A stretch of DNA of 64,000 bases from a virus: positions 32,001 to 96,000 of the IMG/VR virus record IMGVR_UViG_3300025133_000022; one strand, given 5' to 3'. The position numbers and the translations under genes were made by a program. Under the pieces are notes generated by a model, which was not told the origin of the DNA, ran no database searches, and was given only the letters and a program-made list of their open reading frames with translations. Of the stretch, positions 11,249-48,376 are shown piece by piece; within the stretch, counting starts at the first letter, position 1, and the number at the start of each line of letters is the position of its first letter.

Positions 11249-12610
11249 ATGAGCTACCAAGGCATCATAACCACAGTCAAGCTGAAACCACATCCTAGTG
11301 CAGACAAATTACTTCTTGCAGAAGTGGCAGGACACCAGCTAGTCTGCGCCAAGAATGCATACGAAGACGGTGACATCGTCATTTTCTTCCCCGAAGGTGG
11401 CCAACTCAGCCACCCGCTCTGCTGGTACAATGACCTCTACCGAGAAAACAAAGGTGAAAACCGCACACCTAATGTCTATGGATACTTTAGTGAAAATCGT
11501 CGAGTACGCAGCATTAAATTACGTGGTGAAATCTCAGAAGGCTTCATGCTTCCACTCGAAGGCTTGGCTTTCGTTGGCTCAGCCAAACCCCCGAGCGAAC
11601 TCCTTCGTCCCGGCATGCTTATCAACGAACTGCTAGGCAACGAAATCTGCAGAAAATACGAAACCCGTGCAACGAAACAAGCCCGACAAAAAGCAAGTGG
11701 TAAAGCTCGTAAAGACATTAACAACTTTGCCAAGGTTGGACAAACCAGTAAATTCCGCTACGTGATGAACAGCATCCCTAAAGATGCCATCATAACCATA
11801 TCTGAAAAGATTCATGGTACCAGTGGCAGAACCGGTCTTGTTAAAATCAAAGAACGTGTTGACCTACCATACCCCTGGTGGAAGCGTGCTTTGTACTGGA
11901 CTCGAGGACTGTTGCCCAACTGGACTTACGATCCAAAATACGTACCCCACACCCATACGCGAGAATTCAAACACCTCAGTGGCAGTCGCCGTATGATTGT
12001 GGCTCAAGACGAACAAATCTGCAAAACTCGTCCAGATGGTACTCCAATTCCACTTGGTTACCGCAAAAAGATTCACAACGCACTAATCAGCTGCCTCCGC
12101 CCAGGAGAAAGCCTATATTACGAAATCGTAGTGTGTAACGATCAAGGTGTATCCGACTTCCGACAAAAAATCGGCAACAACAAAAGCGACACAGTTCTCA
12201 AAAGTCTTCGAAAGAAATACGATGAACAAATGAACTATAGTTATGGGGTTGCTCCAGGCAGTTACAACATCTGGATATATCGCATCACCATGCAAAACGA
12301 ACGAGGTGATGCGATTCGCCTAGGATGGAATCAAATGACCAAGCGTGCCGCAGAGCTTGGAATTAGTACCGTTCCAGTGCTTGATCAATTCATCTACGAT
12401 GGTGACGCAGAGGCTCTTAACAAACGTCTTGCTCTCATCAGTGATGGACCTAGCACTTTAGACAGCACACACATTCGAGAAGGTGTGTGTGTGCATATCG
12501 ACAGTCCTAAAATGCAAAACGTATTTAAGCGAAAGGGTTTTGCATTTTGTCACTTGGAAGGAATAGCCAAGAACGACGATGAGTACGTTGATCCAGAAGA
12601 CATTGCGTGA
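11249..12610 (+). CDS. RNA ligase, DRB0094/Rnl2-like, with N-terminal OB/tRNA-binding domain
   Basis: HPSADKL, FFPEG, RVRSIKLRGEISEG N-domain; motif I SEKIHGTS; YYEIV; REGVCV; FKRK. Confidence 0.88.
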   Translation: MSYQGIITTVKLKPHPSADKLLLAEVAGHQLVCAKNAYEDGDIVIFFPEGGQLSHPLCWYNDLYRENKGENRTPNVYGYFSENRRVRSIKLRGEISEGFMLPLEGLAFVGSAKPPSELLRPGMLINELLGNEICRKYETRATKQARQKASGKARKDINNFAKVGQTSKFRYVMNSIPKDAIITISEKIHGTSGRTGLVKIKERVDLPYPWWKRALYWTRGLLPNWTYDPKYVPHTHTREFKHLSGSRRMIVAQDEQICKTRPDGTPIPLGYRKKIHNALISCLRPGESLYYEIVVCNDQGVSDFRQKIGNNKSDTVLKSLRKKYDEQMNYSYGVAPGSYNIWIYRITMQNERGDAIRLGWNQMTKRAAELGISTVPVLDQFIYDGDAEALNKRLALISDGPSTLDSTHIREGVCVHIDSPKMQNVFKRKGFAFCHLEGIAKNDDEYVDPEDIA

Positions 12611-19391: not shown

Positions 19392-20096
19392 ATGTCAAAC
19401 CCAACTCAATGGGACGTAGGAGGCTACGTCCGCGATGAACTCCTAGGTATTCCTAGCAAAGATCGCGACATTATGGTTGACCTGCCAAGCTACGAAAAAC
19501 TAGAAGCATGGGCAGAACAACATCTAACAAAAATCTATGAACGACGTCCTGAAATGCTTATCTTGCGAGGACACGGCCCCCTGGGGCCAGTCGATTACAA
19601 CCTCCCGCGCAACGAATCAGCCTACAGTGACAGCAGAACTCCAAACTCAGTAACGGTAGGCACTTTCGAGCAAGATATGGCTCGCAGAGATTTTACTTGT
19701 AATGCTATTGCCAAAAACATTGCAACCGGTGAAATCATAGACCTCCATGGAGGAATGTTAGACATCAATATGCGACGACTACGAATGGTAGGAAGCGCTT
19801 ACGCACGCCTTGATGAAGACCACCTACGAATTGTTCGTGCAATTCGATTCTGCATCACCAAAGGTTTCACACCATATGGAGAATTAGAGAAAATTCTACT
19901 ACATGGTGAATATGCAGATAAACTAGAATCCCTACCTGTTGAACGCATTGCAAATGAAATGTGTAAAGCATTTCATTTCAATACTGCATCAACACTGCAC
20001 TTTCTTGCGTCAATTCATCCAAAATATACAGAAGCCATCTTCTCAAAAAGACTCTGGCTACTACCAACCTTAAAAAATCGCAAATCTGCGGGATAA
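19392..20096 (+). CDS. cca: CCA-adding enzyme / tRNA nucleotidyltransferase (short form)
   Basis: VGGYVRD...DRDI, DMARRDFTCNAIA, EDHLRIVRAIRF. Confidence 0.88.
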   Translation: MSNPTQWDVGGYVRDELLGIPSKDRDIMVDLPSYEKLEAWAEQHLTKIYERRPEMLILRGHGPLGPVDYNLPRNESAYSDSRTPNSVTVGTFEQDMARRDFTCNAIAKNIATGEIIDLHGGMLDINMRRLRMVGSAYARLDEDHLRIVRAIRFCITKGFTPYGELEKILLHGEYADKLESLPVERIANEMCKAFHFNTASTLHFLASIHPKYTEAIFSKRLWLLPTLKNRKSAG

Positions 20097-23440: not shown

Positions 23441-25024
23441 ATGCCAAACCCAAACTTATTCCACACCAAAACATCCCAGCCACTAGCCACCAGCCACAAC
23501 AACGCAGGTGGTCGTGCTTACAAAACTTCCGATATGCATGCGCTTGCACAGCTAGCATGCACTGGTGTATTTAACAACACCTACTACACCAAAGCTGAAA
23601 ACCAACTCAAGCAAGCTCGCGCGCTCTGCAAAAAGGTAAGCCCAGCAACAGTTGCACGTATCGCTGTATACTCACGTCAACAAGGCATGATGAAAGACAT
23701 GCCTGTGCTCTTGCTTACCTACTTGTTTTCCATCGAAGACAAGAAATACTTCAATGCCGCATTCCCGTATGTCGTAAACAACATCGGACAGCTACGCAGC
23801 TTTGTGCAAATGGTTCGTAGTGGTGTTTGTGGTCGTCGCTCTCTTGGCTCTGCAGGCAAGCGCGCAATCGCAAACATGCTCAACACCATGACTCCTCGTC
23901 GAATCTTCTGGCAAGCCACTGGCAAAGGTATGAGTTTTGCAGATGTTCTCAAGCTTGCTCATGTAAGACCACAAAGTGCAGCACACGACAGCTTCTTTGC
24001 CTACATGTTAGGTAAAAGTGTTTCTGAAGACTTTGAGAAACTACCAGAAAACATCCAGCACTTCGAATTGTTCAAACGCAAAGAGTACAGCGAAGTACCA
24101 GATGTACCATTTCAACGCCTGACCAATCTAGATCTTAGTGTAATCCAGTGGGGTGAAGTCACGCGCAAAATGACTTGGAACCAGCTTCGTTTCAACCTAA
24201 ACAACCTCACTCGCAAAGGTGTGTTCAAGGACACTCAGCTGGTTCTCGAAGTAGCAACCAAACTTCGCAATCCCAAAGCAGTGCTTGGCAGCAAGGTTTT
24301 GCCATTCAGTCTATACAACACTGTCAAACATCTAGATGACAGTGTTCCACAAGCTCTAAAGAACGCTATGGTCGATGCACTGGAAATCAGCGGACAAAAC
24401 GCCCCTGTGCTTCAAGGCAACACCCTCGTTCTCGTCGACTCTAGTGGCTCTATGAACTCGCCAACAACTGGCTACCGTGCTGGCGCAACCACCACCATGC
24501 GTTGCGTCGAAGCAGCTGGATACTTTGCAGTCAGCATACTCAAAGCCAACCCAGACAGCACCACCATCCTGCCATTTGACGGCCGAGTTCATCCAGTGAA
24601 CTTAAATCCACGTGATAGCATGGCAACCTTAATCAAAAAACTCCCAACTGCAGGCGGAAGCACCAATATTGCTTGCGGTATTGAATGGGCACTACACACA
24701 AGTACAAAATTCAACCAAATCATCATTGTTTCTGACAATGAGAGCTGGGTGAACTCTGATCAATACATGTGGTACAGTCACAAAATCACTGCAACCAAGC
24801 AAGCTTTTGAAAGATACCGTCGTCACAAGAGCCCTGGCTGTAAAATGATTTGTATCAATATTCAGCCAAGCACTACAACAACGCAGGCACCCGATGACAA
24901 AAATACACTAAACGTAGGAGGACTCAGCGACGCAGTCTTCCGTGTTGCTAGCCAATTCCTCACCAGTCGTGGTAACGCGCACTGGGAAGATGTACTTAAC
25001 AAGATTCTTCCGAATCTCAAATAA
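23441..25024 (+). CDS. rsr: Ro60/Rsr TROVE-domain RNA-binding protein
   Basis: NNAGGRAY, LAQLACTG, MKDMP, LRFNLNNL, vWA C-terminus LVDSSGSM...GGSTN...VSDNESW. Confidence 0.92.
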   Translation: MPNPNLFHTKTSQPLATSHNNAGGRAYKTSDMHALAQLACTGVFNNTYYTKAENQLKQARALCKKVSPATVARIAVYSRQQGMMKDMPVLLLTYLFSIEDKKYFNAAFPYVVNNIGQLRSFVQMVRSGVCGRRSLGSAGKRAIANMLNTMTPRRIFWQATGKGMSFADVLKLAHVRPQSAAHDSFFAYMLGKSVSEDFEKLPENIQHFELFKRKEYSEVPDVPFQRLTNLDLSVIQWGEVTRKMTWNQLRFNLNNLTRKGVFKDTQLVLEVATKLRNPKAVLGSKVLPFSLYNTVKHLDDSVPQALKNAMVDALEISGQNAPVLQGNTLVLVDSSGSMNSPTTGYRAGATTTMRCVEAAGYFAVSILKANPDSTTILPFDGRVHPVNLNPRDSMATLIKKLPTAGGSTNIACGIEWALHTSTKFNQIIIVSDNESWVNSDQYMWYSHKITATKQAFERYRRHKSPGCKMICINIQPSTTTTQAPDDKNTLNVGGLSDAVFRVASQFLTSRGNAHWEDVLNKILPNLK

Positions 25025-34410: not shown

Positions 34411-34815
34411 ATGGAAACGGAATACACGTAGAGCCAAATCAGTTCATTCTTTGAGCGGTTAGAACAAGTAAGCAACGCACTTAACATCTGTGGAGACTAT
34501 GACTTCGAATTCACAGAATGGGAAAGCCAGTCTGGATTCATCACAGTCAGCTGGGAAGAACCAGCTTGTGGTAGCGGTTGTTGTGGCTATGACAGTCATG
34601 AAGGCCAAATACCAGTAGCACTGCTATTTGATCCCAACTGGGAAGCAACAATAGCTGCTGATAAGAAAGCAAAACTAGCTAAAGCAAAAGCTGACAAGCT
34701 TGCTAAAGAGCAAGCTGACAAGCTACAACAGCAACGAAAGGCCGAACAAGCCAAAGCCAACAGGCGTTTGACTTACCAACAATTAGCCAAAGAGTTCGGA
34801 GACACCAGTGTCTGA
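34411..34815 (+). pseudogene. ORF interrupted by an in-frame TAG at codon 7 (pseudogene or amber read-through gene)
   Basis: AGGAG RBS, ATG, six codons, TAG (34429-34431), then 127 open codons ending in a TGA that overlaps the next gene. Confidence 0.65.
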
Positions 34816-35155
34816 ACACTCTTACGATCCTAACTGGAAGCTACGTATCGTAGTAGATCAAACACTAAAGCCAGGCCAACAGATAGCACAAGCTCTTCAT
34901 GCAGCCATTGAGTTCTTGTTTGTATATCCTGAACAATCAAACACATGGCACTGTCTAAGCAACAGCGTAGTCGTCATGAACTGTGAGCCAGAAGAGCTAC
35001 CCAAGCTCTTAGATCGTTGTAAAAAGAAAAATGTGCAATACTCTACCTTCATGGAGCCTGACATGGATAACCGACTTACAGCAGTCTGCATAGAGCCAAC
35101 ACGAACAGGAAAGAAGTGCACCAGCAATTACAAGCTGGCCATGCGAGACATCTAA
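34808..35155 (+). CDS. Peptidyl-tRNA hydrolase, Pth2-like
   Basis: KLRIVV...GQQIAQALHA...FMEPD...LTAVCIEP...KL. Confidence 0.75.
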   Translation: MSEHSYDPNWKLRIVVDQTLKPGQQIAQALHAAIEFLFVYPEQSNTWHCLSNSVVVMNCEPEELPKLLDRCKKKNVQYSTFMEPDMDNRLTAVCIEPTRTGKKCTSNYKLAMRDI

Positions 35156-35187: not shown

Positions 35188-35259
35188 GAGGAATTAGCTC
35201 AGCGGTAGAGCAGCAAATTCTAAACTTGTTTGTCGGGGGTTCGAATCCCCCATTCCTCA
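35188..35259 (+). tRNA. Amber suppressor tRNA (anticodon CTA)
   Basis: Canonical cloverleaf; GCAAA-ttCTAaa-CTTGT anticodon arm with an A31-C39 mismatch. Confidence 0.8.
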
Positions 35260-35365
35260 CTGCCGTAGGCGTGCGTAGCACGCCTTGTGGATTGAGCTCT
35301 TGACACACAAAAACAATCTGGTTATGTTGTCAGACTGTTCTTTGAAAACCACAATTGAAATGAAT

Positions 35366-35755: not shown

Positions 35756-35792
35756 GTAAAAGCAATTAGTTAACGAAGAAATCGTTAACCAC

Positions 35793-35923
35793 GACTGAAT
35801 GCCTGAGCAGATTACATCGCCTTCCACGCGGGTAACACAGGTTCAAATCCTGTACTCGGCTTTATGCCGAGTTCGTCTAGCGGCTAAGACACCTCAAACT
35901 AATCTCTTGTATCCTTGTCAGTC
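35793..35923 (+). ncRNA. Scaffold element 1: circularly permuted tRNA-Gly(TCC)
   Basis: 3' half 35819-35861 precedes 5' half 35866-35894; joining gives CCTGC-ctTCCac-GCGGG; outer stem GACTGA/TCAGTC. Confidence 0.85.
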
Positions 35924-35966
35924 ACCTTCACGCCCATGATTCTGAGGCTGTAAATATCAGACGCAC

Positions 35967-36041
35967 GGCTATGTGGCTCAGTTTGGTTAGAGCAGGGGCT
36001 TCATACGCCCAAGGCCACAGGTTCAAATCCTGTCATAGCCA
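35967..36041 (+). tRNA. tRNA-Met/Ile2(CAT)
   Basis: Cloverleaf; loop ttCATac. Confidence 0.85.
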
Positions 36042-36056
36042 TTTCACACTATTTAA

Positions 36057-36132
36057 TGCGGAGTAGACTGGAGTTTGGTCCCAGCACGGTCTCATAAGCC
36101 GTATGACGTAGGTTCGAATCCTACTTCCGCCT
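36057..36132 (+). tRNA. tRNA-Met(CAT), possibly initiator-like
   Basis: Cloverleaf; loop ctCATaa; 1:72 mismatch. Confidence 0.82.
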
Positions 36133-36146
36133 CTTTAGAGAATGCA

Positions 36147-36452
36147 ATGTTTGATATAATAATTCCTTTCCTCATGGGCATCGTTCTTGTCGGTGCTATG
36201 ATGGAAAGAACTCTTACAGTCATTCAAGGAAACATTTCACGAACTGCTGTACTTAGCATTCTTATCAGTTCTGTGTATTGGTTTAACATCCAATATGTAG
36301 CGAGTGGAAATGTAGCTGCTTATATTAGTTTCAGTATAGGAACTCTTATAGTTACCTGTTGGCAAAGCTGGCGAGAAAAACAACGCTATGCTGGACAACC
36401 GGGGAAAAGCAGAAGAATGACTGACAAACTTAAAAATATTAAGAAAGAATGA
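36147..36452 (+). CDS. Small membrane protein
   Basis: Three hydrophobic segments. Confidence 0.55.
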   Translation: MFDIIIPFLMGIVLVGAMMERTLTVIQGNISRTAVLSILISSVYWFNIQYVASGNVAAYISFSIGTLIVTCWQSWREKQRYAGQPGKSRRMTDKLKNIKKE

Positions 36453-36617
36453 ACAAGAGTTTTCATCGCAAAAATAACGGCCCTAAGGTACCTAGATCTG
36501 GGCAACCAGTCAGGGAAAAATGTGAATCCTTCATGGACAAAGCATTGTGGTGACGGCAGATAAGCTTCTTGAAGCCCTGTAACGACCGGCAGAAACTCTT
36601 ACCTCCTTGTCTTTCTT
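36441..36617 (+). ncRNA. Scaffold element 2: non-tRNA cargo
   Basis: AAGAAAGA-ATG...TCATCG...AAACTCTT-ACCTC-CTTG-TCTTTCTT. Confidence 0.65.
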
Positions 36618-36654
36618 ATGTATTTGAATACTTAGTATTTCCTATTTACTTTTT

Positions 36655-36730
36655 GTCCTTGTAGCTCAGTGTTTAGAGCGCCCGAACCTGAAAAGCAGGG
36701 AGGTCGTCGGTTAGAATCCAACCAAGGACA
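36655..36730 (+). tRNA. Degenerate tRNA-like gene
   Basis: Acceptor GTCCTTG/CAAGGAC and D arm intact; T-loop GTTAGAA and anticodon arm irregular. Confidence 0.5.
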
Positions 36731-36858
36731 ACAAATACATCTAAGTGCATCCAGACCTTACAGGCAACCCAAGGGTCAAGCCTGCAAGTGAAACTGTACA
36801 TTTGTGGGTACACAAACCCCGTGAGACCGTTCTCGACACGTTAAATCGGAGGACACAC

Positions 36859-37032
36859 GTTAGAATGCCAGAGAAAGATTACATCGTGCCAATTTACGAG
36901 CCGGTGGTTCAACTCCACAGCTAGAAAGCATGTACGCACGTGCAAAGGCGTACAAGGAGCGACGTTGGGTCGCTCATCGTGGATCGAAAGCCCACGATTC
37001 CTAAAAAATCATCTTCTCACCTCTTGTCTAAC
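36859..37032 (+). ncRNA. Scaffold element 3: T-loop hairpin plus multi-hairpin cargo
   Basis: GTTAGA-ATGCC...AGATTACATCG...CTTG-TCTAAC; GTGG-TTCAACT-CCAC hairpin. Confidence 0.75.
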
Positions 37033-37071
37033 ACCCTTACTCGCGTAGTTGAACCAGCTCGCTTGTACCAC

Positions 37072-37235
37072 GTACGAATGCCCAGTGAGGATTACATCGC
37101 CTTATAAGCGGGTGGTCGCAGGTTCGAGTCCTGTCTCTCCAACCATGGTCTTGACGGGCCTGGCTGTTAGCACAGCCGGAGAGTAGCTCAGTTGGTAGAG
37201 CACCTACAAACTGATCCCACAATTTCTTGTCGTAC
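37072..37235 (+). ncRNA. Scaffold element 4: circularly permuted tRNA with TAT anticodon
   Basis: 3' half 37099-37145 ends ACCA; hairpin linker; 5' half 37177-37205; joining gives CCTGC-ctTATaa-GCGGG. Confidence 0.85.
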
Positions 37236-37278
37236 ATTTTATCGAATTGAGCGTAGCTCAAACCCACCTCAATAACCA

Positions 37279-37409
37279 TAAACAAATGCCAAATAGATTA
37301 CATCGTCCCCGCCATATGGGGACGTGGTGTACAGGCGCACACCCTGAGTCCAATCAGGGAGGAATGGGTTCGATTCCCGTGTAATAATCTATTCACTTCT
37401 TTGTTGTTT
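37279..37409 (+). ncRNA. Scaffold element 5: tRNA permuted at the T-arm/acceptor junction (65/66)
   Basis: CGTCCCC-G-CCA (37304-37314) precedes GGGGACG...T-arm (37318-37380); anticodon loop aberrant (GTCCAA). Confidence 0.78.
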
Positions 37410-37605
37410 TATGTAGCAACTGCTCCCTAAAAGTACTACATTACCATCGTGGGATACGTCAGGTTAGTCCTGGAAGACTTGGTACGTTAAGCCAAGCGCG
37501 TTAAAGCACTTAAGTGCCTTGACTGGTTTTAATCAGGATACGTCCCCGCGTCTTCACTGTCGCAAGACAGCAACCCTTCAGGTGGGTACTGATTAAAATC
37601 ACCAC

Positions 37606-37740
37606 GATCGAATGCCAGAGTAGATTACATCGCTTTTGGAGCCGGTGGTTCCCGGTTCGAATCCGGGTCTCCCTACTATAGAGAGGTAGCTTAATCAGGT
37701 AGAGCACCGTTAAAACTAATCTCTCACTTCTTTGTCGATC
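37606..37740 (+). ncRNA. Scaffold element 6: circularly permuted tRNA-Gln(TTG)
   Basis: 3' half 37632-37675, 5' half 37680-37709; joining gives CCGGC-ttTTGga-GCCGG; outer stem GATCGA/TCGATC. Confidence 0.85.
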
Positions 37741-37935: not shown

Positions 37936-38024
37936 GGTAGGTGTAGCTCATTTGGAGACGCAAGTCGTAGAGCGCCGGGTTGTGATTCCGGAGGTAACGG
38001 GTTCAATCCCCGTCATCTACCCCA
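37936..38024 (+). tRNA. tRNA-His(GTG) with a hairpin insertion in the D-loop
   Basis: G-1, loop ttGTGat, CCA; D-loop contains GAC-GCAA-GTC. Confidence 0.82.
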
Positions 38025-38436: not shown

Positions 38437-38567
38437 GACCGAATGCCCTAGATAACTACATCGTAAAACTTGAAATTTTAAGGTCTGGGTTCGAGTCCCA
38501 GTGGGTCCACTTTGGGCCTGTGGTGTAACGGTAGCATCAAACATGTTATCTAACTCTTTTGTCGGTC
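38437..38567 (+). ncRNA. Scaffold element 8: tRNA permuted near 26/27 (TGA loop, short variable region)
   Basis: TAAAA-ctTGAaa-TTTTA, T arm, TGGGTCC-A, linker CTTT, GGGCCTG plus D arm; outer stem GACCGA/TCGGTC. Confidence 0.78.
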
Positions 38568-38745: not shown

Positions 38746-38833
38746 GCGGGGTTAGCTCAGTCTGGCCAGAGCGCCGGCCTTCCAAGCCGGAGGCGAATAG
38801 TTTACACGGGTTCGAATCCCGTACCCCGCTCCA
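38746..38833 (+). tRNA. tRNA-Gly(TCC) with an extended variable region
   Basis: Loop ctTCCaa; UCCA end; ~15-nt variable segment. Confidence 0.82.
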
Positions 38834-39468: not shown

Positions 39469-39542
39469 GCGGGGGTAGTTTTCAACCGATAAAACATCGG
39501 CCTTCCAAGCCGAAGTCCCGAGTTCAAACCTCGGTGCCCGCT
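39469..39542 (+). tRNA. tRNA-Gly(TCC)
   Basis: Cloverleaf; loop ctTCCaa; U73. Confidence 0.82.
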
Positions 39543-39907
39543 CTTGTGTGATTAACTCATAGCCTACCGGCAAAACAAGACCTCGATCTTGTTCCAATAG
39601 AGCACCTGCGCAAAGGCAGGAGGTAGAGAGTTTAGGCGACTCTCATTGCACACCACGGGGAATAGCGCATCTGTGATGATCTATGAAGTAGCCAACAGAT
39701 CATTGGCGAAAAGTTGCATGCGCGCACACTGTCATAAATACTTCGAAGTAATGCGTCGACGGACAAGTGAACCAAGTACGGAGATAGCAATGCGTCTTAG
39801 CGCGTTGGATGTGGATCCAGAGGTACCCCGTGTGGGGTTCCCCAACCATTAAAGAATAATCATGGGTACAAACGAAAGTACCAGTGGCTTGAAGTAACAA
39901 TTACCAC

Positions 39908-42211: not shown

Positions 42212-42826
42212 ATGAAAATCGTATTTATAACAGGAGCTGGTATTAGCACAGCCTCTGGACTCCCCACATACAGGGGGGCCAATGGACTCTACGGCAATGA
42301 GCCAATAGAAGACGGTTACAGAATTGATGAAATCCTAAGTAGAAAAATTGCAAACATAAGACCAGATTTATTTAATAAATATCATGGTCAAATTGAAAAA
42401 GCTATTGCATTAGTTGAACCCAACACTATGCACTATGCTATCGCTGCTCTTCAAGAGCAGCACGATGTACGTATTTACACTCAAAACATCGATGACTTAC
42501 ATGAACGTGCGGGCAGCAAGCATGTTGTTCATCTGCACGGTGGAGGAGCTGAAAAAGAACCAGTCATTCTGTTCGGAGACTACTTGGATCCACAGAAGCT
42601 AAAGTGGATGAAGGCAGCCTGCAAGGCTGCTGATATACTGGTGCTTGTGGGCAGCTCTGCTGCCTTCCACTACATCCAAAGACCTTTCAAGAAAGCCAAG
42701 TATGACCACCCACAGGTCTTTATTCTAGACCCTGATCCACAACATCCACTGGCTGACACGGGTGTACACAAGAAGAATCCAAGCGAATACGCAGACATCA
42801 TCAAAATTATTCCAGAACTATTCTGA
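42212..42826 (+). CDS. Sir2/CobB-family NAD-dependent deacylase lacking the Zn-ribbon
   Basis: TGAGISTASGLPTYRG, TQNIDDLHERAG, HLHG, VGSS. Confidence 0.88.
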   Translation: MKIVFITGAGISTASGLPTYRGANGLYGNEPIEDGYRIDEILSRKIANIRPDLFNKYHGQIEKAIALVEPNTMHYAIAALQEQHDVRIYTQNIDDLHERAGSKHVVHLHGGGAEKEPVILFGDYLDPQKLKWMKAACKAADILVLVGSSAAFHYIQRPFKKAKYDHPQVFILDPDPQHPLADTGVHKKNPSEYADIIKIIPELF

Positions 42827-45040: not shown

Positions 45041-45299
45041 TCTTCTAATCGTTCTGTCGATGCTAGGCACTATTGCCTTCTGCTGTGCAATCCTTTGGTC
45101 ACTGCCACAATTGTGGTACAGAATCAAATATGGGAAATTCAAACCTTCTTATGAAGAGCTTGAGCTACAGCACACAAAAGAAATACAAGAACTACACAAC
45201 GCGCACGTTGCGAAAGACCTCAAATTCGAAAGAGAAAGAAACGAAAGCCTCTCAACCGAACTGAAAAACACAATCAAAAAACTGGTCGATAAAATTTGA
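45024..45299 (+). CDS. Membrane-anchored coiled-coil protein
   Basis: N-terminal TM helix. Confidence 0.55.
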   Translation: MLIPNSLLIVLSMLGTIAFCCAILWSLPQLWYRIKYGKFKPSYEELELQHTKEIQELHNAHVAKDLKFERERNESLSTELKNTIKKLVDKI

Positions 45300-45734: not shown

Positions 45735-48376
45735 ATGAACCAGGTACCATTGTATATTATCAACTTGGACGACAGCGTCCCACTGCCTGGTGGTACGTTC
45801 GTATTAGATGTTCAAACAGAAAAACTGCATTTATTCAGCAGTGTCGAATCATACAACAAGCAATATGTTATTATTGGTATAGCTGATTGTCCAGACCCAA
45901 CAGAAATACTCGAAGACCCTACATCTGCCCTTGAGCCTTTGCTACAAGTAGGGGTCATGTGTCAAATCACAGAAACAGAAGCTGCAGACACCTTCACGGT
46001 ATATACTCTTCAGGTACTGCATCGAGTCTTGATTAGAAATATCAATAGAAACAAAAGTGAAGACGACCCATATACTCTTTGGGTTCAGCAAGAGCCTATA
46101 GCAGAAGAATTTCTCCCCGCAGAAGAAGAACTAAAGAGAGACATTCAAGATATGATTGGAATATTTCTCCGTAAAGAACAAATCTGGGCAGGTATGTCTG
46201 ATTCAACTATCAAGACACTGCGCTCAGATGAGCATCTTTTGAAAAAGATGCATCTTATGGCAGGGCACATGCTATCAGGTATTGAACGATTAGACTATTT
46301 GCAACAACTCAGCAATGTTGACAGATGGAATAAAGTACTAACTGTGGCTAGCAAAAAACTAAGCGCACAAGCGAGAGCACTACCTCCCCCCGTCTCTAAG
46401 AAAATAGACAAACCTAAAAAGAAAGGTAAGAAACTACTTACTTGGAGAGAACGAGTTGCAGAGAGCGACATGCCTGATGCCGTACGAGAGAAAGTACTAC
46501 GCGAAGTCAGCAAGTTGGAATCTACTCCAAAAAACAGTACCGAGTATGCTCAGACAGCCGACTACCTTCGATGGACTCTAAGCGTTCCATGGGGTAAAAC
46601 AAGCTACATACCAACAGACCTACGCAAACTCCACAGCAAACTAGACGAAACACACTACGGTTTAAGTGAAGTGAAAGAACACATGCTTGAAATCATGTGT
46701 GTCCAAGAGCTTCACGAAGGCTCCACGGGCTCTGTGCTTTGTTTTGTAGGCCCTCCCGGCACAGGCAAAACCACCATCGCAAAATCTATTGCAGACGTTT
46801 CAAATCGTCCACTTATTAGAATTGCCCTAGGTGGACTCAGCGATACTGCTGAATTTCGAGGTTAAGCAAAATGGCCTCGCGTGTTGGCAACAGCACGAAA
46901 ACAATTCCATTAATTGCTGGAACATCCTAATGACAAAGTCAAGGACAATCAGCAGCTAGATATTAGTGGTCACCACATGTTACATTAACTCTATAACCAC
47001 GGAGTTAACAATGAAATATCATGTAGGCGACACACTTGGTTCGTTTCTACTCATCAATAAAGATGGAGTAAAATGGACCGCAAAATGCACATGTGGAAAC
47101 ATTTGGTCAACAAGATTGATACGACTAAAAGGCCGTACCAACTGCCCCAAATGCTCACCGCCACGATCTTATAAGCAAAGACAACCAGGTGAAACAATTA
47201 ACAGCCACACCTTACTTGAACGATTACCATCTAGAAAATGGAAAACTCAATGTAAGTGTGGAGCAACTAGAATATGTTCACCAGCTGATCTTAAAAGATA
47301 CGATACATGTAAAGCCTGCTACGATCCTGAGAAAGTAGCAGGCCAACTCCGACTTCCTCCTAAAGAGAAAGAAACTAATTATCGTATCCGCTACTACAAA
47401 AAACATGCTAAAGAAAGAAACTACGATTGGGAATTGACAAAATTTCAAACCCAAACACTACTTCAAAGCATATGCAACTATTGTGGTAGCGAAAATGCTC
47501 AAGGCATTGACAGAGTAGACAACTCTCAAGGATATACAATTAGCAACTGTGTCAGTTGCTGCAATTTTTGCAATCATGCAAAGAAAAACTATCCTAAAGA
47601 AGAGTTTCTTAATCATATTAAGCGCATTTATGAATATCAGTTCAGAGACTATCCCGAAAGGGAGTACAGCCAAGCGGCTGGAAACATGGAACCCCCACGT
47701 GGGTGAAGATATAGTCCGATCTACATGGAAACATGTAGCAGCGAAAGCGAGTGTAGCCTAGCGAACTACGCTGAACACCATGCATAGACGTACATACGTA
47801 GCCAGCAGACCAGGACGACTCATCTCCGAACTAAAAGAGAAGGGCAGTATGGATCCACTCATCCTTTTAGATGAAGTTGATAAGCTTGCTCACTACAAGG
47901 GCGACCCAGCAGCAGCCCTATTAGAGATCTTAGATCCAGAACAAAACGATCATTTTGTAGACCACTACTTGGAAGTGCCAGTAAATCTAAGTAAAGCAAT
48001 GTTCATTTGCACAGCCAATTACGAAGAAAAAATTCCACAACCACTACTAGATCGTATGGAACTAATCAGGTTCCGAGCTTACGATGATGCTGAACGCGAC
48101 ATTATTACAAAACAATTTCTGCTGCCAAAAATCCAAGCTCAAGAAAACAATACAAATCTACCAGTAACCTTCGAAGATACAGCTTTAACTAGAATAGCTA
48201 AGATTCCACAAGTAAGAAAAATCGAGAAGATTTTAGCTAAGCTTGTTCGCCGAGGAGTTACCCAAGTCCATGTACATGGGAAGAAAGAATACGTCATTAC
48301 AAATGATGATGTATCAAAAATTAAACACAACTATGTGTCAAAATCCGATCGAAAAATAATTGGATTCAGGAAATAA
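45735..48376 (+). CDS. Lon-like AAA+ ATPase without protease domain, spliced: join(45735..46862,47783..48376)
   Basis: Lon N-domain, LDETHYGL, GPPGTGKT; splicing restores AEFRG-HRRTY; LLDEVDK, LLEILDPEQN. Confidence 0.88.
46863..47782 (+). mobile_element. Group I intron in the Lon-like gene
   Basis: P1 CGAGGT/GCCTCG; AATTGCTGGAA, AATCAGCAG, GTTCAGAGACT, AAGATATAGTCC; terminal G at 47782. Confidence 0.9.
47011..47706 (+). CDS. Intron-encoded HNH homing endonuclease
   Basis: CTCG/CKCG repeats; CNYCG...GIDRVDNSQGY...NCVSCCNFCNHAK. Confidence 0.85.
   Translation: MKYHVGDTLGSFLLINKDGVKWTAKCTCGNIWSTRLIRLKGRTNCPKCSPPRSYKQRQPGETINSHTLLERLPSRKWKTQCKCGATRICSPADLKRYDTCKACYDPEKVAGQLRLPPKEKETNYRIRYYKKHAKERNYDWELTKFQTQTLLQSICNYCGSENAQGIDRVDNSQGYTISNCVSCCNFCNHAKKNYPKEEFLNHIKRIYEYQFRDYPEREYSQAAGNMEPPRG

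What the first reader, a model, noticed from the sequence alone, without database searches (positions are those of the whole stretch)
35819..37709. Three permuted tRNAs opened at the same position (29/30, anticodon stem)
Seen: in elements 1, 4 and 6 the 5' half ends at nt 29 (ACCT, ACCT, ACCG) and the 3' half starts GC at nt 30 straight after ACATC. The anticodon arm can therefore still form, with the scaffold helix inserted like an open-ended intron. Inference: a shared, precise insertion point suits a defined nuclease plus ligase step, or a fixed geometry that displays the anticodon loop as bait for anticodon nucleases.
Basis: partly seen in the sequence, partly recalled or inferred. Interest (0 to 1): 0.8.

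Follow-up and report, generated by a model that had tools for sequence, protein, structure and literature searches.

The report
Phage Y RNAs carrying whole tRNA mimics
The three "back-to-front tRNAs" are real, but they are best read as small partner RNAs (YrlA-type Y RNAs) of a Ro60/Rsr protein that this large phage encodes, unusual in keeping a complete anticodon hairpin that published YrlA RNAs lack.

Summary
E1, E4 and E6 read 3' half, closed acceptor stem, 5' half. Rejoined at 29/30, ARAGORN calls Gly(UCC), Ile(UAU) and Gln(UUG) cloverleaves.

The break is not one precise site. In E1 and E4 the scaffold's own C pairs with G41, so 28/29 fits better. In relatives the break runs from 26/27 to 31/32.

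These are three of eight RNAs sharing a covarying handle that matches the most conserved part of Rfam YrlA, though below its threshold. The phage encodes a Ro60/Rsr homolog 11 kb upstream. Forty-two other viral contigs carry related Rsr genes. At least 16 of these loci carry full-length copies of the element, all on the rsr strand.

Permuted topology is the published YrlA architecture. What is unusual is a retained anticodon hairpin with tRNA-like loops (U33 and R37 in 18 of 22) and often an encoded CCA.

Maturation into working tRNAs is unsupported:
- canonical tRNAs with the same anticodons exist in the genome;
- loop and body isotype disagree;
- empty handles exist in relatives;
- no RtcB or splicing endonuclease was found.

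No RNA data could be obtained.

This scan has noted phage Ro60 genes with handle-bearing RNAs on other DNA before. Verdict: a new variant of a known kind, of moderate interest.

The parts
35793..35923 (+). E1: Y RNA-like element. Handle 5' strand 35793-35818 (outer stem GACUGA, AUGCC loop, inner stem, CAUC linker); anticodon hairpin nt 30-40 at 35819-35829 (loop CUUCCAC); nt 41-43 at 35830-35832; T arm 35837-35853; acceptor 3' strand 35854-35860; U73 plus UUAU linker 35861-35865; acceptor 5' strand 35866-35872; D arm 35875-35890; nt 27-29 CCU 35892-35894; handle 3' strand 35895-35923.
37072..37235 (+). E4: Y RNA-like element. Handle 5' strand 37072-37098; hairpin 37099-37109 (loop CUUAUAA); T arm 37118-37134; acceptor 3' strand 37135-37141; A73 37142; encoded CCA 37143-37145; 31-nt insert with its own hairpin 37146-37176; acceptor 5' strand 37177-37183; D arm 37186-37201; CCU 37203-37205; handle 3' strand 37206-37235.
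   Evidence: Rfam YrlA 40.9 bits, E 5e-7
37606..37740 (+). E6: Y RNA-like element. Handle 5' strand 37606-37631; hairpin 37632-37642 (loop UUUUGGA); nt 41-43 CGG 37643-37645; T arm 37651-37667; acceptor 37668-37674 with 37680-37686; D arm 37689-37705; CCG 37707-37709; handle 3' strand 37710-37740.
   Evidence: Rfam YrlA 37.6 bits, E 5e-6
36443..36615 (+). E2: same handle (outer stem GAAAGA/UCUUUC) with cargo that is not tRNA-like. Its 5' end overlaps the stop of ORF 36075-36452.
   Evidence: scanner; sequence
36859..37032 (+). E3: same handle; the cargo has only a T-arm-like hairpin.
   Evidence: 41.7 bits
37280..37409 (+). E5: same handle; tRNA-like cargo joined at about 65/66. The acceptor hairpin GUCCCC-GCCAUAU-GGGGAC comes first.
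   Evidence: 27.1 bits
38183..38352 (+). E7: same handle; class II-like tRNA cargo with a long variable arm and encoded A-CCA.
   Evidence: (44.7 bits)
38437..38567 (+). E8: same handle; tRNA-like cargo with a fully local anticodon arm (UAAAA-CUUGAAA-UUUUA), break at 26/27.
   Evidence: (58.9 bits)
23441..25024 (+). Ro60/Rsr homolog (527 aa), the presumed protein partner.
   Evidence: Pfam vWA_Ro60 2.4e-18, TROVE 5e-5; full-length match to D. radiodurans Rsr 2nvo_A, E 1.4e-17; phrog_850 1e-41
19392..20096 (+). tRNA nucleotidyltransferase (CCA-adding type). Possible context for CCA ends on opened modules.
   Evidence: Pfam PolyA_pol 1.5e-20; phrog_2244 1e-38
11249..12610 (+). RNA ligase (Rnl2-type nucleotidyltransferase with OB domain). 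Context only.
   Evidence: Pfam RNA_ligase 27.1 bits, PHA02142 OB; phrog_968 1e-50

Best explanation
E1, E4 and E6 are three of eight tandem Y RNA-like genes of the YrlA type, not split tRNA genes awaiting repair.

Architecture. Each RNA has a conserved handle: a covarying 6-bp outer stem, an invariant (C)GAAUGCC / CUUGUC internal loop, an inner stem and an ACAUC...AAAC apical linker. This handle is inferred to bind the phage's own Ro60/Rsr ring protein. In the apex of the handle sits a tRNA-like module in the order T arm, closed acceptor stem, D arm, which is the published YrlA topology. In this phage lineage the module also keeps the lower anticodon stem and a 7-nt loop as a third branch. 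The whole is therefore a complete tRNA look-alike joined to the handle through a break in the 5' strand of the anticodon stem. Because the scaffold base before nt 30 can itself act as nt 29, the break is degenerate (28/29 or 29/30).

Likely workings (inferred):
- The array is co-transcribed with the surrounding tRNAs.
- Rsr binds the handle.
- The tRNA-like module engages tRNA-binding proteins as a tether or decoy.
- In members with a 7-bp acceptor stem and encoded CCA (E4 here), RNase P opens the acceptor loop and leaves a CCA-ended two-piece RNA, as shown for M. smegmatis YrlA.

Shown here: architecture, covariation, the link to Rsr, and tRNA-like loop features. Inferred: Rsr binding, RNase P opening, and the downstream partner.
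For: - Rfam YrlA matches E4 and E6 end to end (E 5e-7 and 5e-6). The only large insert relative to the model is the 15-nt hairpin. Relatives L161 and L137 also hit YrlA, at 59.4 and 42.9 bits.
- A full-length Rsr homolog lies at 23441-25024.
- My model R1 finds all eight window elements and copies in other viral contigs. The three contigs with strong copies all encode Rsr at 34-41% identity. In G002 two elements lie directly downstream of rsr.
- Of 42 viral loci fetched through Rsr, at least 16 hold full-length R1 hits, all on the rsr strand.
- All seven helices covary: 95% of cells paired against 61% in shuffles, 33 of 34 pairs with double changes, and 96.6% pairing at the hairpin base.
- Loops are tRNA-like: U33+R37 in 18 of 22 (null 0.134, P about 1e-12), and 19 of 34 by an automatic rule.
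- CCA is encoded after the discriminator in 8 of 23 modules (0.36 expected).
[quoted passage not shown] M. smegmatis YrlA is cut by RNase P and receives CCA (PMC4201824).
Against: - Rfam scores (40.9 and 37.6 bits) are below the YrlA gathering score of 69, and E1 gives no YrlA hit at all.
- rsr is 11 kb away here, not adjacent.
- Published YrlA lacks an anticodon loop, so the hairpin has no known role in that family.
- The covariation counts come from an alignment fitted to my own model.
- The 22 loops were partly chosen by eye.
Confidence: 0.77

Rival explanations
1. Bait or decoy function. This is a specific function within the Y RNA reading: the retained anticodon loops are displayed on Rsr-bound RNAs to soak up or sense anticodon-specific host factors, such as anticodon nucleases of anti-phage defence, or aminoacyl-tRNA synthetases.
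For: - Loops keep U33, R37 and A38 while the triplet varies (16 different triplets in 22 loops).
- The most similar bodies carry different loops, and identical loops sit on unrelated bodies.
- The array sits among tRNA-repair-type genes: RNA ligase, CCA-adding enzyme, phosphoesterase and Pth2.
Against: - No nuclease or synthetase was tested.
- 4 of 22 loops break the U33/R37 rule, and A32, rare in real tRNAs, is present in 10 of 22.
- The recurrence of identical loops is not clearly above chance.
- Loop features could simply be inherited from tRNA ancestors.
Confidence: 0.15
2. True permuted tRNA genes. The handle is excised, nt 29 is ligated to nt 30 (for example by the phage Rnl2-type ligase sealing the nick in the anticodon stem), and the acceptor loop is opened to give working tRNAs.
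For: - Rejoined sequences are clean cloverleaves.
- Acceptor stems are 7 bp, and E4 encodes CCA.
- The phage encodes an RNA ligase and a CCA-adding enzyme.
- Wang et al. raised this possibility for YrlA in general (10.1101/312249).
Against: - Canonical tRNAs with the same three anticodons are present.
- Body isotype disagrees with the loop triplet: E1 has an Asp/Glu-like body, E4 Pro/Arg-like.
- The E1 ortholog in L146 has loop AUAUCCA with C37.
- The break point is degenerate and variable.
- Empty handles and handles with non-tRNA cargo exist.
- No RtcB and no splicing endonuclease were found.
- There is no bulge-helix-bulge geometry.
Confidence: 0.05
3. The handle is a self-cleaving ribozyme, mini-intron or mobile cassette that captures tRNAs, unrelated to Ro60.
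For: - Different break points in E5, E7 and E8.
- The handle exists without cargo.
Against: - No ribozyme or intron family matches, even at E up to 10.
- The conserved handle core coincides with the YrlA Ro-binding core.
- The handle co-occurs with Rsr and lies on the rsr strand across dozens of contigs.
Confidence: 0.03

Closest known systems
YrlA (Y RNA-like A; Rfam RF02553): bacterial and phage partner RNAs of Rsr/Ro60 (Chen et al. 2014, PMC4201824; Wang et al. 2018, 10.1101/312249)
   Same: - A stem with a conserved CGAAUGC / CUUGUCG core.
- A tRNA-like module in the order T arm, loop-closed acceptor stem, D arm.
- Encoded with an Rsr gene and set among tRNA genes in phages.
- Some members have 7-bp acceptor stems plus CCA, like the RNase P-cleaved M. 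smegmatis YrlA.
   Different: [quoted passage not shown] Here an 11-nt hairpin (nt 30-40) with a tRNA-like 7-nt loop branches off, making a three-way junction.
- Scores fall below Rfam's gathering threshold.
- There are eight copies in one array, with several different attachment points.
Circularly permuted tRNA genes of Cyanidioschyzon merolae, other algae and Thermofilum pendens (Soma 2007; Maruyama 2010; Chan 2011, as cited in 10.1101/312249)
   Same: - The 3' half lies upstream of the 5' half.
- The acceptor strands are joined by a short linker.
- The ends pair to extend the anticodon-arm region.
   Different: - Those use a bulge-helix-bulge motif, a splicing endonuclease and a ligase to make a circular intermediate and then a working tRNA.
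- Here there is no BHB, no endonuclease or RtcB in the phage, and a conserved Ro-type handle.
- The copies here are redundant with canonical tRNAs.
Thermus phage phiLo Ro60 with Yrl1/Yrl2 (PMC12135203)
   Same: A phage-encoded Ro60 with phage-encoded Y RNA-like partners that carry a CGAA-type motif in a bulged stem.
   Different: The passages of that paper I read describe stem-bulge-stem RNAs and mention no tRNA-like module with an anticodon hairpin. That protein is a more distant PDB match (9l5y/9kop, E 6e-16).

Membership tests
YrlA (Rfam RF02553) | Score at or above Rfam's gathering threshold (69 bits) | tested here: not met
   E4 40.9 bits, E6 37.6 bits, E1 no hit; the best relative, L161, scores 59.4 bits. 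E-values are significant (5e-7, 5e-6, 4e-11) and the matches are end to end.
YrlA (Rfam RF02553) | Ro60/Rsr gene in the same genome, typically nearby | tested here: met
   Rsr homolog at 23441-25024. It is adjacent to the elements in G002. Rsr is present in all three contigs with strong copies, and at least 16 of 42 Rsr loci hold full-length copies on the same strand.
YrlA (Rfam RF02553) | Conserved Ro-binding stem core (CGAA-N-G on the 5' strand; CUUGUCG on the 3' strand) | tested here: met
   E4, E6 and E8 have CGAAUGCC...CUUGUCG or UUUGUCG; E1 has CUGAAUGCC...CUUGUCA. These align to the model's most conserved columns.
YrlA (Rfam RF02553) | tRNA-like module: T arm, loop-closed acceptor stem, D arm, with the ends at the anticodon stem | tested here: met
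YrlA (Rfam RF02553) | No anticodon loop; the stem continues from the anticodon stem (Wang et al. 2018) | tested here: not met
   E1, E4 and E6 and most relatives carry a GC-N7-GC type hairpin. The canonical form is seen in Cashline and Mx1.
YrlA (Rfam RF02553) | Physical binding to Rsr | not testable with these tools
   Needs EMSA or RIP.
Permuted tRNA genes (algal/archaeal type) | 3' half upstream of the 5' half, giving a cloverleaf when rejoined | tested here: met
Permuted tRNA genes (algal/archaeal type) | Bulge-helix-bulge motif at the junction | tested here: not met
   Both linkers (CAUC and CAAAC, ACAAAC or UUAAAAC) lie at the same end of the handle helix, forming a three-way junction. 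This is by inspection.
Permuted tRNA genes (algal/archaeal type) | Splicing endonuclease and RtcB-type ligase available | tested here: not met
   PF01974 and PF01139 are absent from the 192.5-kb phage record. The host is unknown, so host enzymes could not be tested.
Permuted tRNA genes (algal/archaeal type) | Joined mature tRNA and circular intermediate detectable | not testable with these tools

The most novel reading that the evidence does not exclude
A lineage of large Rsr-encoding phages has turned YrlA into a panel of complete tRNA replicas. Each is tethered to Ro60 by a handle entering the anticodon stem, is opened by RNase P to a CCA end, and displays a different genuine-looking anticodon loop. 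This would let the Ro60 particle be aminoacylated, or act as a decoy or sensor for anticodon-specific host nucleases during the tRNA-centred conflict between phage and host.
Probability: 0.2. Interest if true: 0.8.

Novelty: new variant of a known kind. Interest (0 to 1): 0.5.

Why it matters
What the tRNA-like domain of bacterial Y RNAs is for, and how Y RNAs arose from tRNAs, are open questions. Elements that keep the anticodon hairpin, tRNA-like loop features and an encoded CCA are the most complete tRNA replicas yet seen on a Ro60 handle. They suggest that in these phages the mimic must be recognised by factors that read the anticodon arm.

They also give concrete substrates for testing Rsr binding, RNase P opening, CCA addition, charging and anticodon-nuclease cleavage. 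For annotation, such elements should not be called split or permuted tRNA genes.

Tried and rejected
- **Motif scan of viral contigs.** The exact-pattern scan (GAATGCC-N4-9-ATTACATCG) returned 109 loci. By my estimate that is about chance level, and only about six were real by the covariance model.
- **ARAGORN over a cut-point grid.** Circularising each insert over a grid of cut points was too permissive, since many cuts gave some tRNA call. I replaced it with an anchored cloverleaf parser.
- **Paralogy with the phage's own tRNAs.** E1, E4 and E6 are not close paralogs of the canonical tRNAs with the same anticodon: identities of 74-77% equal the tRNA background.
- **Isotype matching with the loop masked.** This gave mostly mismatches, so I make no claim of specific tRNA ancestry.
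- **Recurrence of identical loops on different bodies.** Seven pairs were found, which is not clearly above chance, so I make no claim.
- **Promoter and terminator scan of the array.** Uninformative.
- **DNA similarity search against phage genomes.** It found only tRNA-level matches.
- **Reviews not held.** Two Y RNA reviews (PMC10870794, PMC6047535) are not in the library.
Full report
**What is there**

The window is part of a 192.5-kb virus record rated complete and has a dense tRNA region. Between 35793 and 38567 lie eight elements on the + strand that share one scaffold. The scaffold consists of:
- a 6-bp outer stem that covaries (GACUGA/UCAGUC, GUACGA/UCGUAC, GAUCGA/UCGAUC, GUUGGA/UCCAAC, GACCGA/UCGGUC and so on);
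- an invariant AUGCC...UUG internal loop;
- an inner stem;
- an ACAUC...AAAC apical linker.

A scanner for this architecture finds the eight copies clustered there. It also finds about nine scattered hits elsewhere in the genome, which matches the count in shuffled sequence.

**The observation**

In E1 (35793-35923), E4 (37072-37235) and E6 (37606-37740) the cargo reads in this order: nt 30-76 of a tRNA, a linker, then nt 1-29. ARAGORN calls nothing in the native sequences. After rejoining at 29/30 it calls Gly(tcc), Ile(tat) and Gln(ttg) with regular cloverleaves.

The break point is less exact than stated. An anchored cloverleaf parser (T arm, then acceptor strands, then D arm, then counting which side supplies each base of the anticodon stem) gives these results:
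- For E1 and E4, 28/29 fits better (five Watson-Crick pairs). The scaffold's own C of ACAUC pairs with G41, whereas U29 gives only a wobble.
- E6 is 29/30 only.

**What it is**

A permissive Rfam search matches E4 and E6 end to end to YrlA, the bacterial Y RNA-like family, at E 5e-7 and 5e-6. These scores are below the gathering threshold. The conserved CGAAUGC and CUUGUCG columns align, and the one large insert relative to the model is the 15-nt stretch holding the hairpin.

About 11 kb upstream, ORF 23441-25024 is a Ro60/Rsr homolog:
- Pfam vWA_Ro60 2.4e-18 and TROVE 5e-5;
- a full-length match to D. radiodurans Rsr, 2nvo_A, E 1.4e-17;
- phrog_850 1e-41.

[quoted passage not shown] M. smegmatis YrlA, which has a 7-bp acceptor stem, is cut by RNase P and receives CCA in vivo (PMC4201824). 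The permuted order is therefore the native YrlA topology. The retained hairpin is the unusual part.

**Relatives**

A covariance model built from E1, E4 and E6 (R1) recovers all eight window elements and finds copies in other viral contigs.
- The three contigs with strong copies each encode an Rsr homolog at 34-41% identity. In G002 two elements lie immediately downstream of rsr.
- An Rsr alignment pulled in 42 viral loci, many from contigs of 100-480 kb. At least 16 hold full-length R1 hits, all on the rsr strand.
- Rfam YrlA independently hits two relatives at 59.4 and 42.9 bits.
- On 33 aligned hits all seven helices covary: 95% of cells are paired against 61% in shuffles and 41-46% when partners are slid. 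The two pairs at the base of the hairpin are 96.6% paired with 8-10 double changes. The caveat is that this alignment was fitted to the model.
- Some relatives are empty handles with 2-4 nt in place of the cargo (L012:710-775, L025:3165-3228). E2 and E3 in the window carry cargo that is not a tRNA.
- The closest cultured phage is Myxococcus phage Mx1 (Rsr 38% identical). It has one unannotated copy at 45166-45297, of the canonical type.
- Gordonia phage Cashline's YrlA, directly upstream of its Ro gene, has no hairpin.

**The hairpin and the break point across the family**

Among split-stem elements:
- five have the break at 28/29 only;
- three at 29/30 only;
- five at either, because the scaffold base before nt 30 and the last base of the 5' half can both pair with nt 41.

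A second common class has a fully local anticodon arm, with the break at 26/27 (E8 and several relatives). A few break at 31/32. So the three elements share a class of attachment, not a single phosphodiester.

The loops look like anticodon loops:
- 18 of 22 have U33 and a purine at 37 (null 0.134, P about 1e-12), 20 of 22 have A38, and there are 16 different triplets (these loops were partly picked by eye).
- A fixed automatic rule gives 19 of 34, against 2-7 in most shifted registers. It mis-registers a few elements, E1 included.
- A32, which to my knowledge is unusual in real tRNAs, occurs in 10 of 22.

CCA is encoded directly after the discriminator in 8 of 23 modules, against 0.36 expected. 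These include E4 and E7.

**Against maturation into working tRNAs**

- The genome already has canonical Gly-UCC (two copies), Ile-UAU and Gln-UUG. The three modules are no closer to these than tRNAs generally are to one another.
- With the loop masked, E1 has an Asp/Glu-like body and E4 a Pro/Arg-like body. Only 3 of 14 modules match their loop's isotype best.
- The E1 ortholog in another phage has loop AUAUCCA.
- Similar bodies carry different loops, and identical loops sit on unrelated bodies.
- The phage has no RtcB, no Rnl1 match (that control search rang nowhere) and no splicing endonuclease. It does encode an Rnl2-type RNA ligase, a CCA-adding enzyme, a phosphoesterase and Pth2.
- The junction is a three-way junction rather than a bulge-helix-bulge.
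- The read-level test could not be run.

**Most likely mechanism**

The array is transcribed with the neighbouring tRNAs; no convincing internal promoters or terminators were found. Rsr binds the handle. The tRNA-like module, complete with anticodon arm, engages tRNA-binding proteins as a tether or decoy. Members with 7-bp acceptor stems and CCA are opened by RNase P into two-piece, CCA-ended RNAs.

Only the architecture, the covariation, the Rsr linkage and the loop statistics are shown here. Binding, processing and the partner proteins are inferred from the YrlA literature.

**Novelty and score**

Phage Ro60 genes with Y RNA-like partners are published (PMC4201824, PMC12135203). This scan has also noted handle-bearing RNA arrays beside phage Ro60 genes on other DNA several times.

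What I could not find described is a YrlA-type RNA that keeps a complete, tRNA-like anticodon hairpin, found in at least 15 of the Rsr-encoding viral contigs examined. I rate this a new variant of a known kind, interest 0.5.

Noticed in passing
window 37280-37409 (E5): Same handle, but the tRNA-like cargo is attached at about 65/66. The acceptor hairpin GUCCCC-G-CCA-UAU-GGGGAC comes first, followed by the D arm, an anticodon-like arm with a 6- or 8-nt loop, and the T arm. So one array holds several different permutation points.
   Followed up: partly
L012:710-775; L025:3165-3228 (-): 'Empty' handles in other viral contigs: a full scaffold with only 2-4 nt between ACAUC and ACAAAA. This shows the handle is a module in its own right. 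The contig behind L025 (G004, 67 kb, complete) has no detectable Rsr.
   Followed up: partly
window 36655-36730: Rfam tRNA hit (45.5 bits) that ARAGORN does not call. It has normal acceptor, D and T arms, but 14 nt where 11 positions of the Rfam tRNA model fall in the anticodon arm, so the loop looks oversized.
   Followed up: no
window 37937-38021: tRNA-His(GUG)-like gene with a roughly 15-nt insertion in the D loop (Rfam 51.1 bits; not called by ARAGORN).
   Followed up: no
window 35188-35260: Canonical-looking tRNA with a CUA (amber-reading) anticodon, 67 bits in Rfam, just downstream of a Pth2-like gene (34808-35155).
   Followed up: no
window 35789-35792, 35924-35927 and the same flanks of E3, E6, E7, E8: In this phage the scaffolds are preceded by CCA(C/U) and followed by ACC(U/C). 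If trimmed and completed with A, the 3' tail would give the outer stem an NCCA-like end. This is not conserved in relatives.
   Followed up: no
L178:2981-3132 (Myxococcus phage Mx1, about 46646-46797 of OR576727.2): Rfam tmRNA match (50.2 bits, above the gathering score of 47), cut off by the end of the fetched locus, in the Mx1 tRNA cluster. In the annotated stretch I fetched, the only feature overlapping this position is a small hypothetical-protein CDS.
   Followed up: no
L160:4585-4660; L148:4415-4497: The model also matches, over positions 31-106 only, the 3' half of one ordinary tRNA plus the 5' half of the next tRNA in tandem arrays. This illustrates how a permuted module could arise from tandem tRNA genes, the origin idea discussed by Wang et al. 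2018.
   Followed up: no
window 42212-42826: A Sir2-family gene (Pfam 5e-30) embedded in the phage tRNA cluster.
   Followed up: no
window 38746-38833: tRNA-Gly(UCC) of 88 nt with an extra stretch of about 13 nt in the variable region, beside a second Gly(UCC) of normal length at 39469-39543.
   Followed up: no
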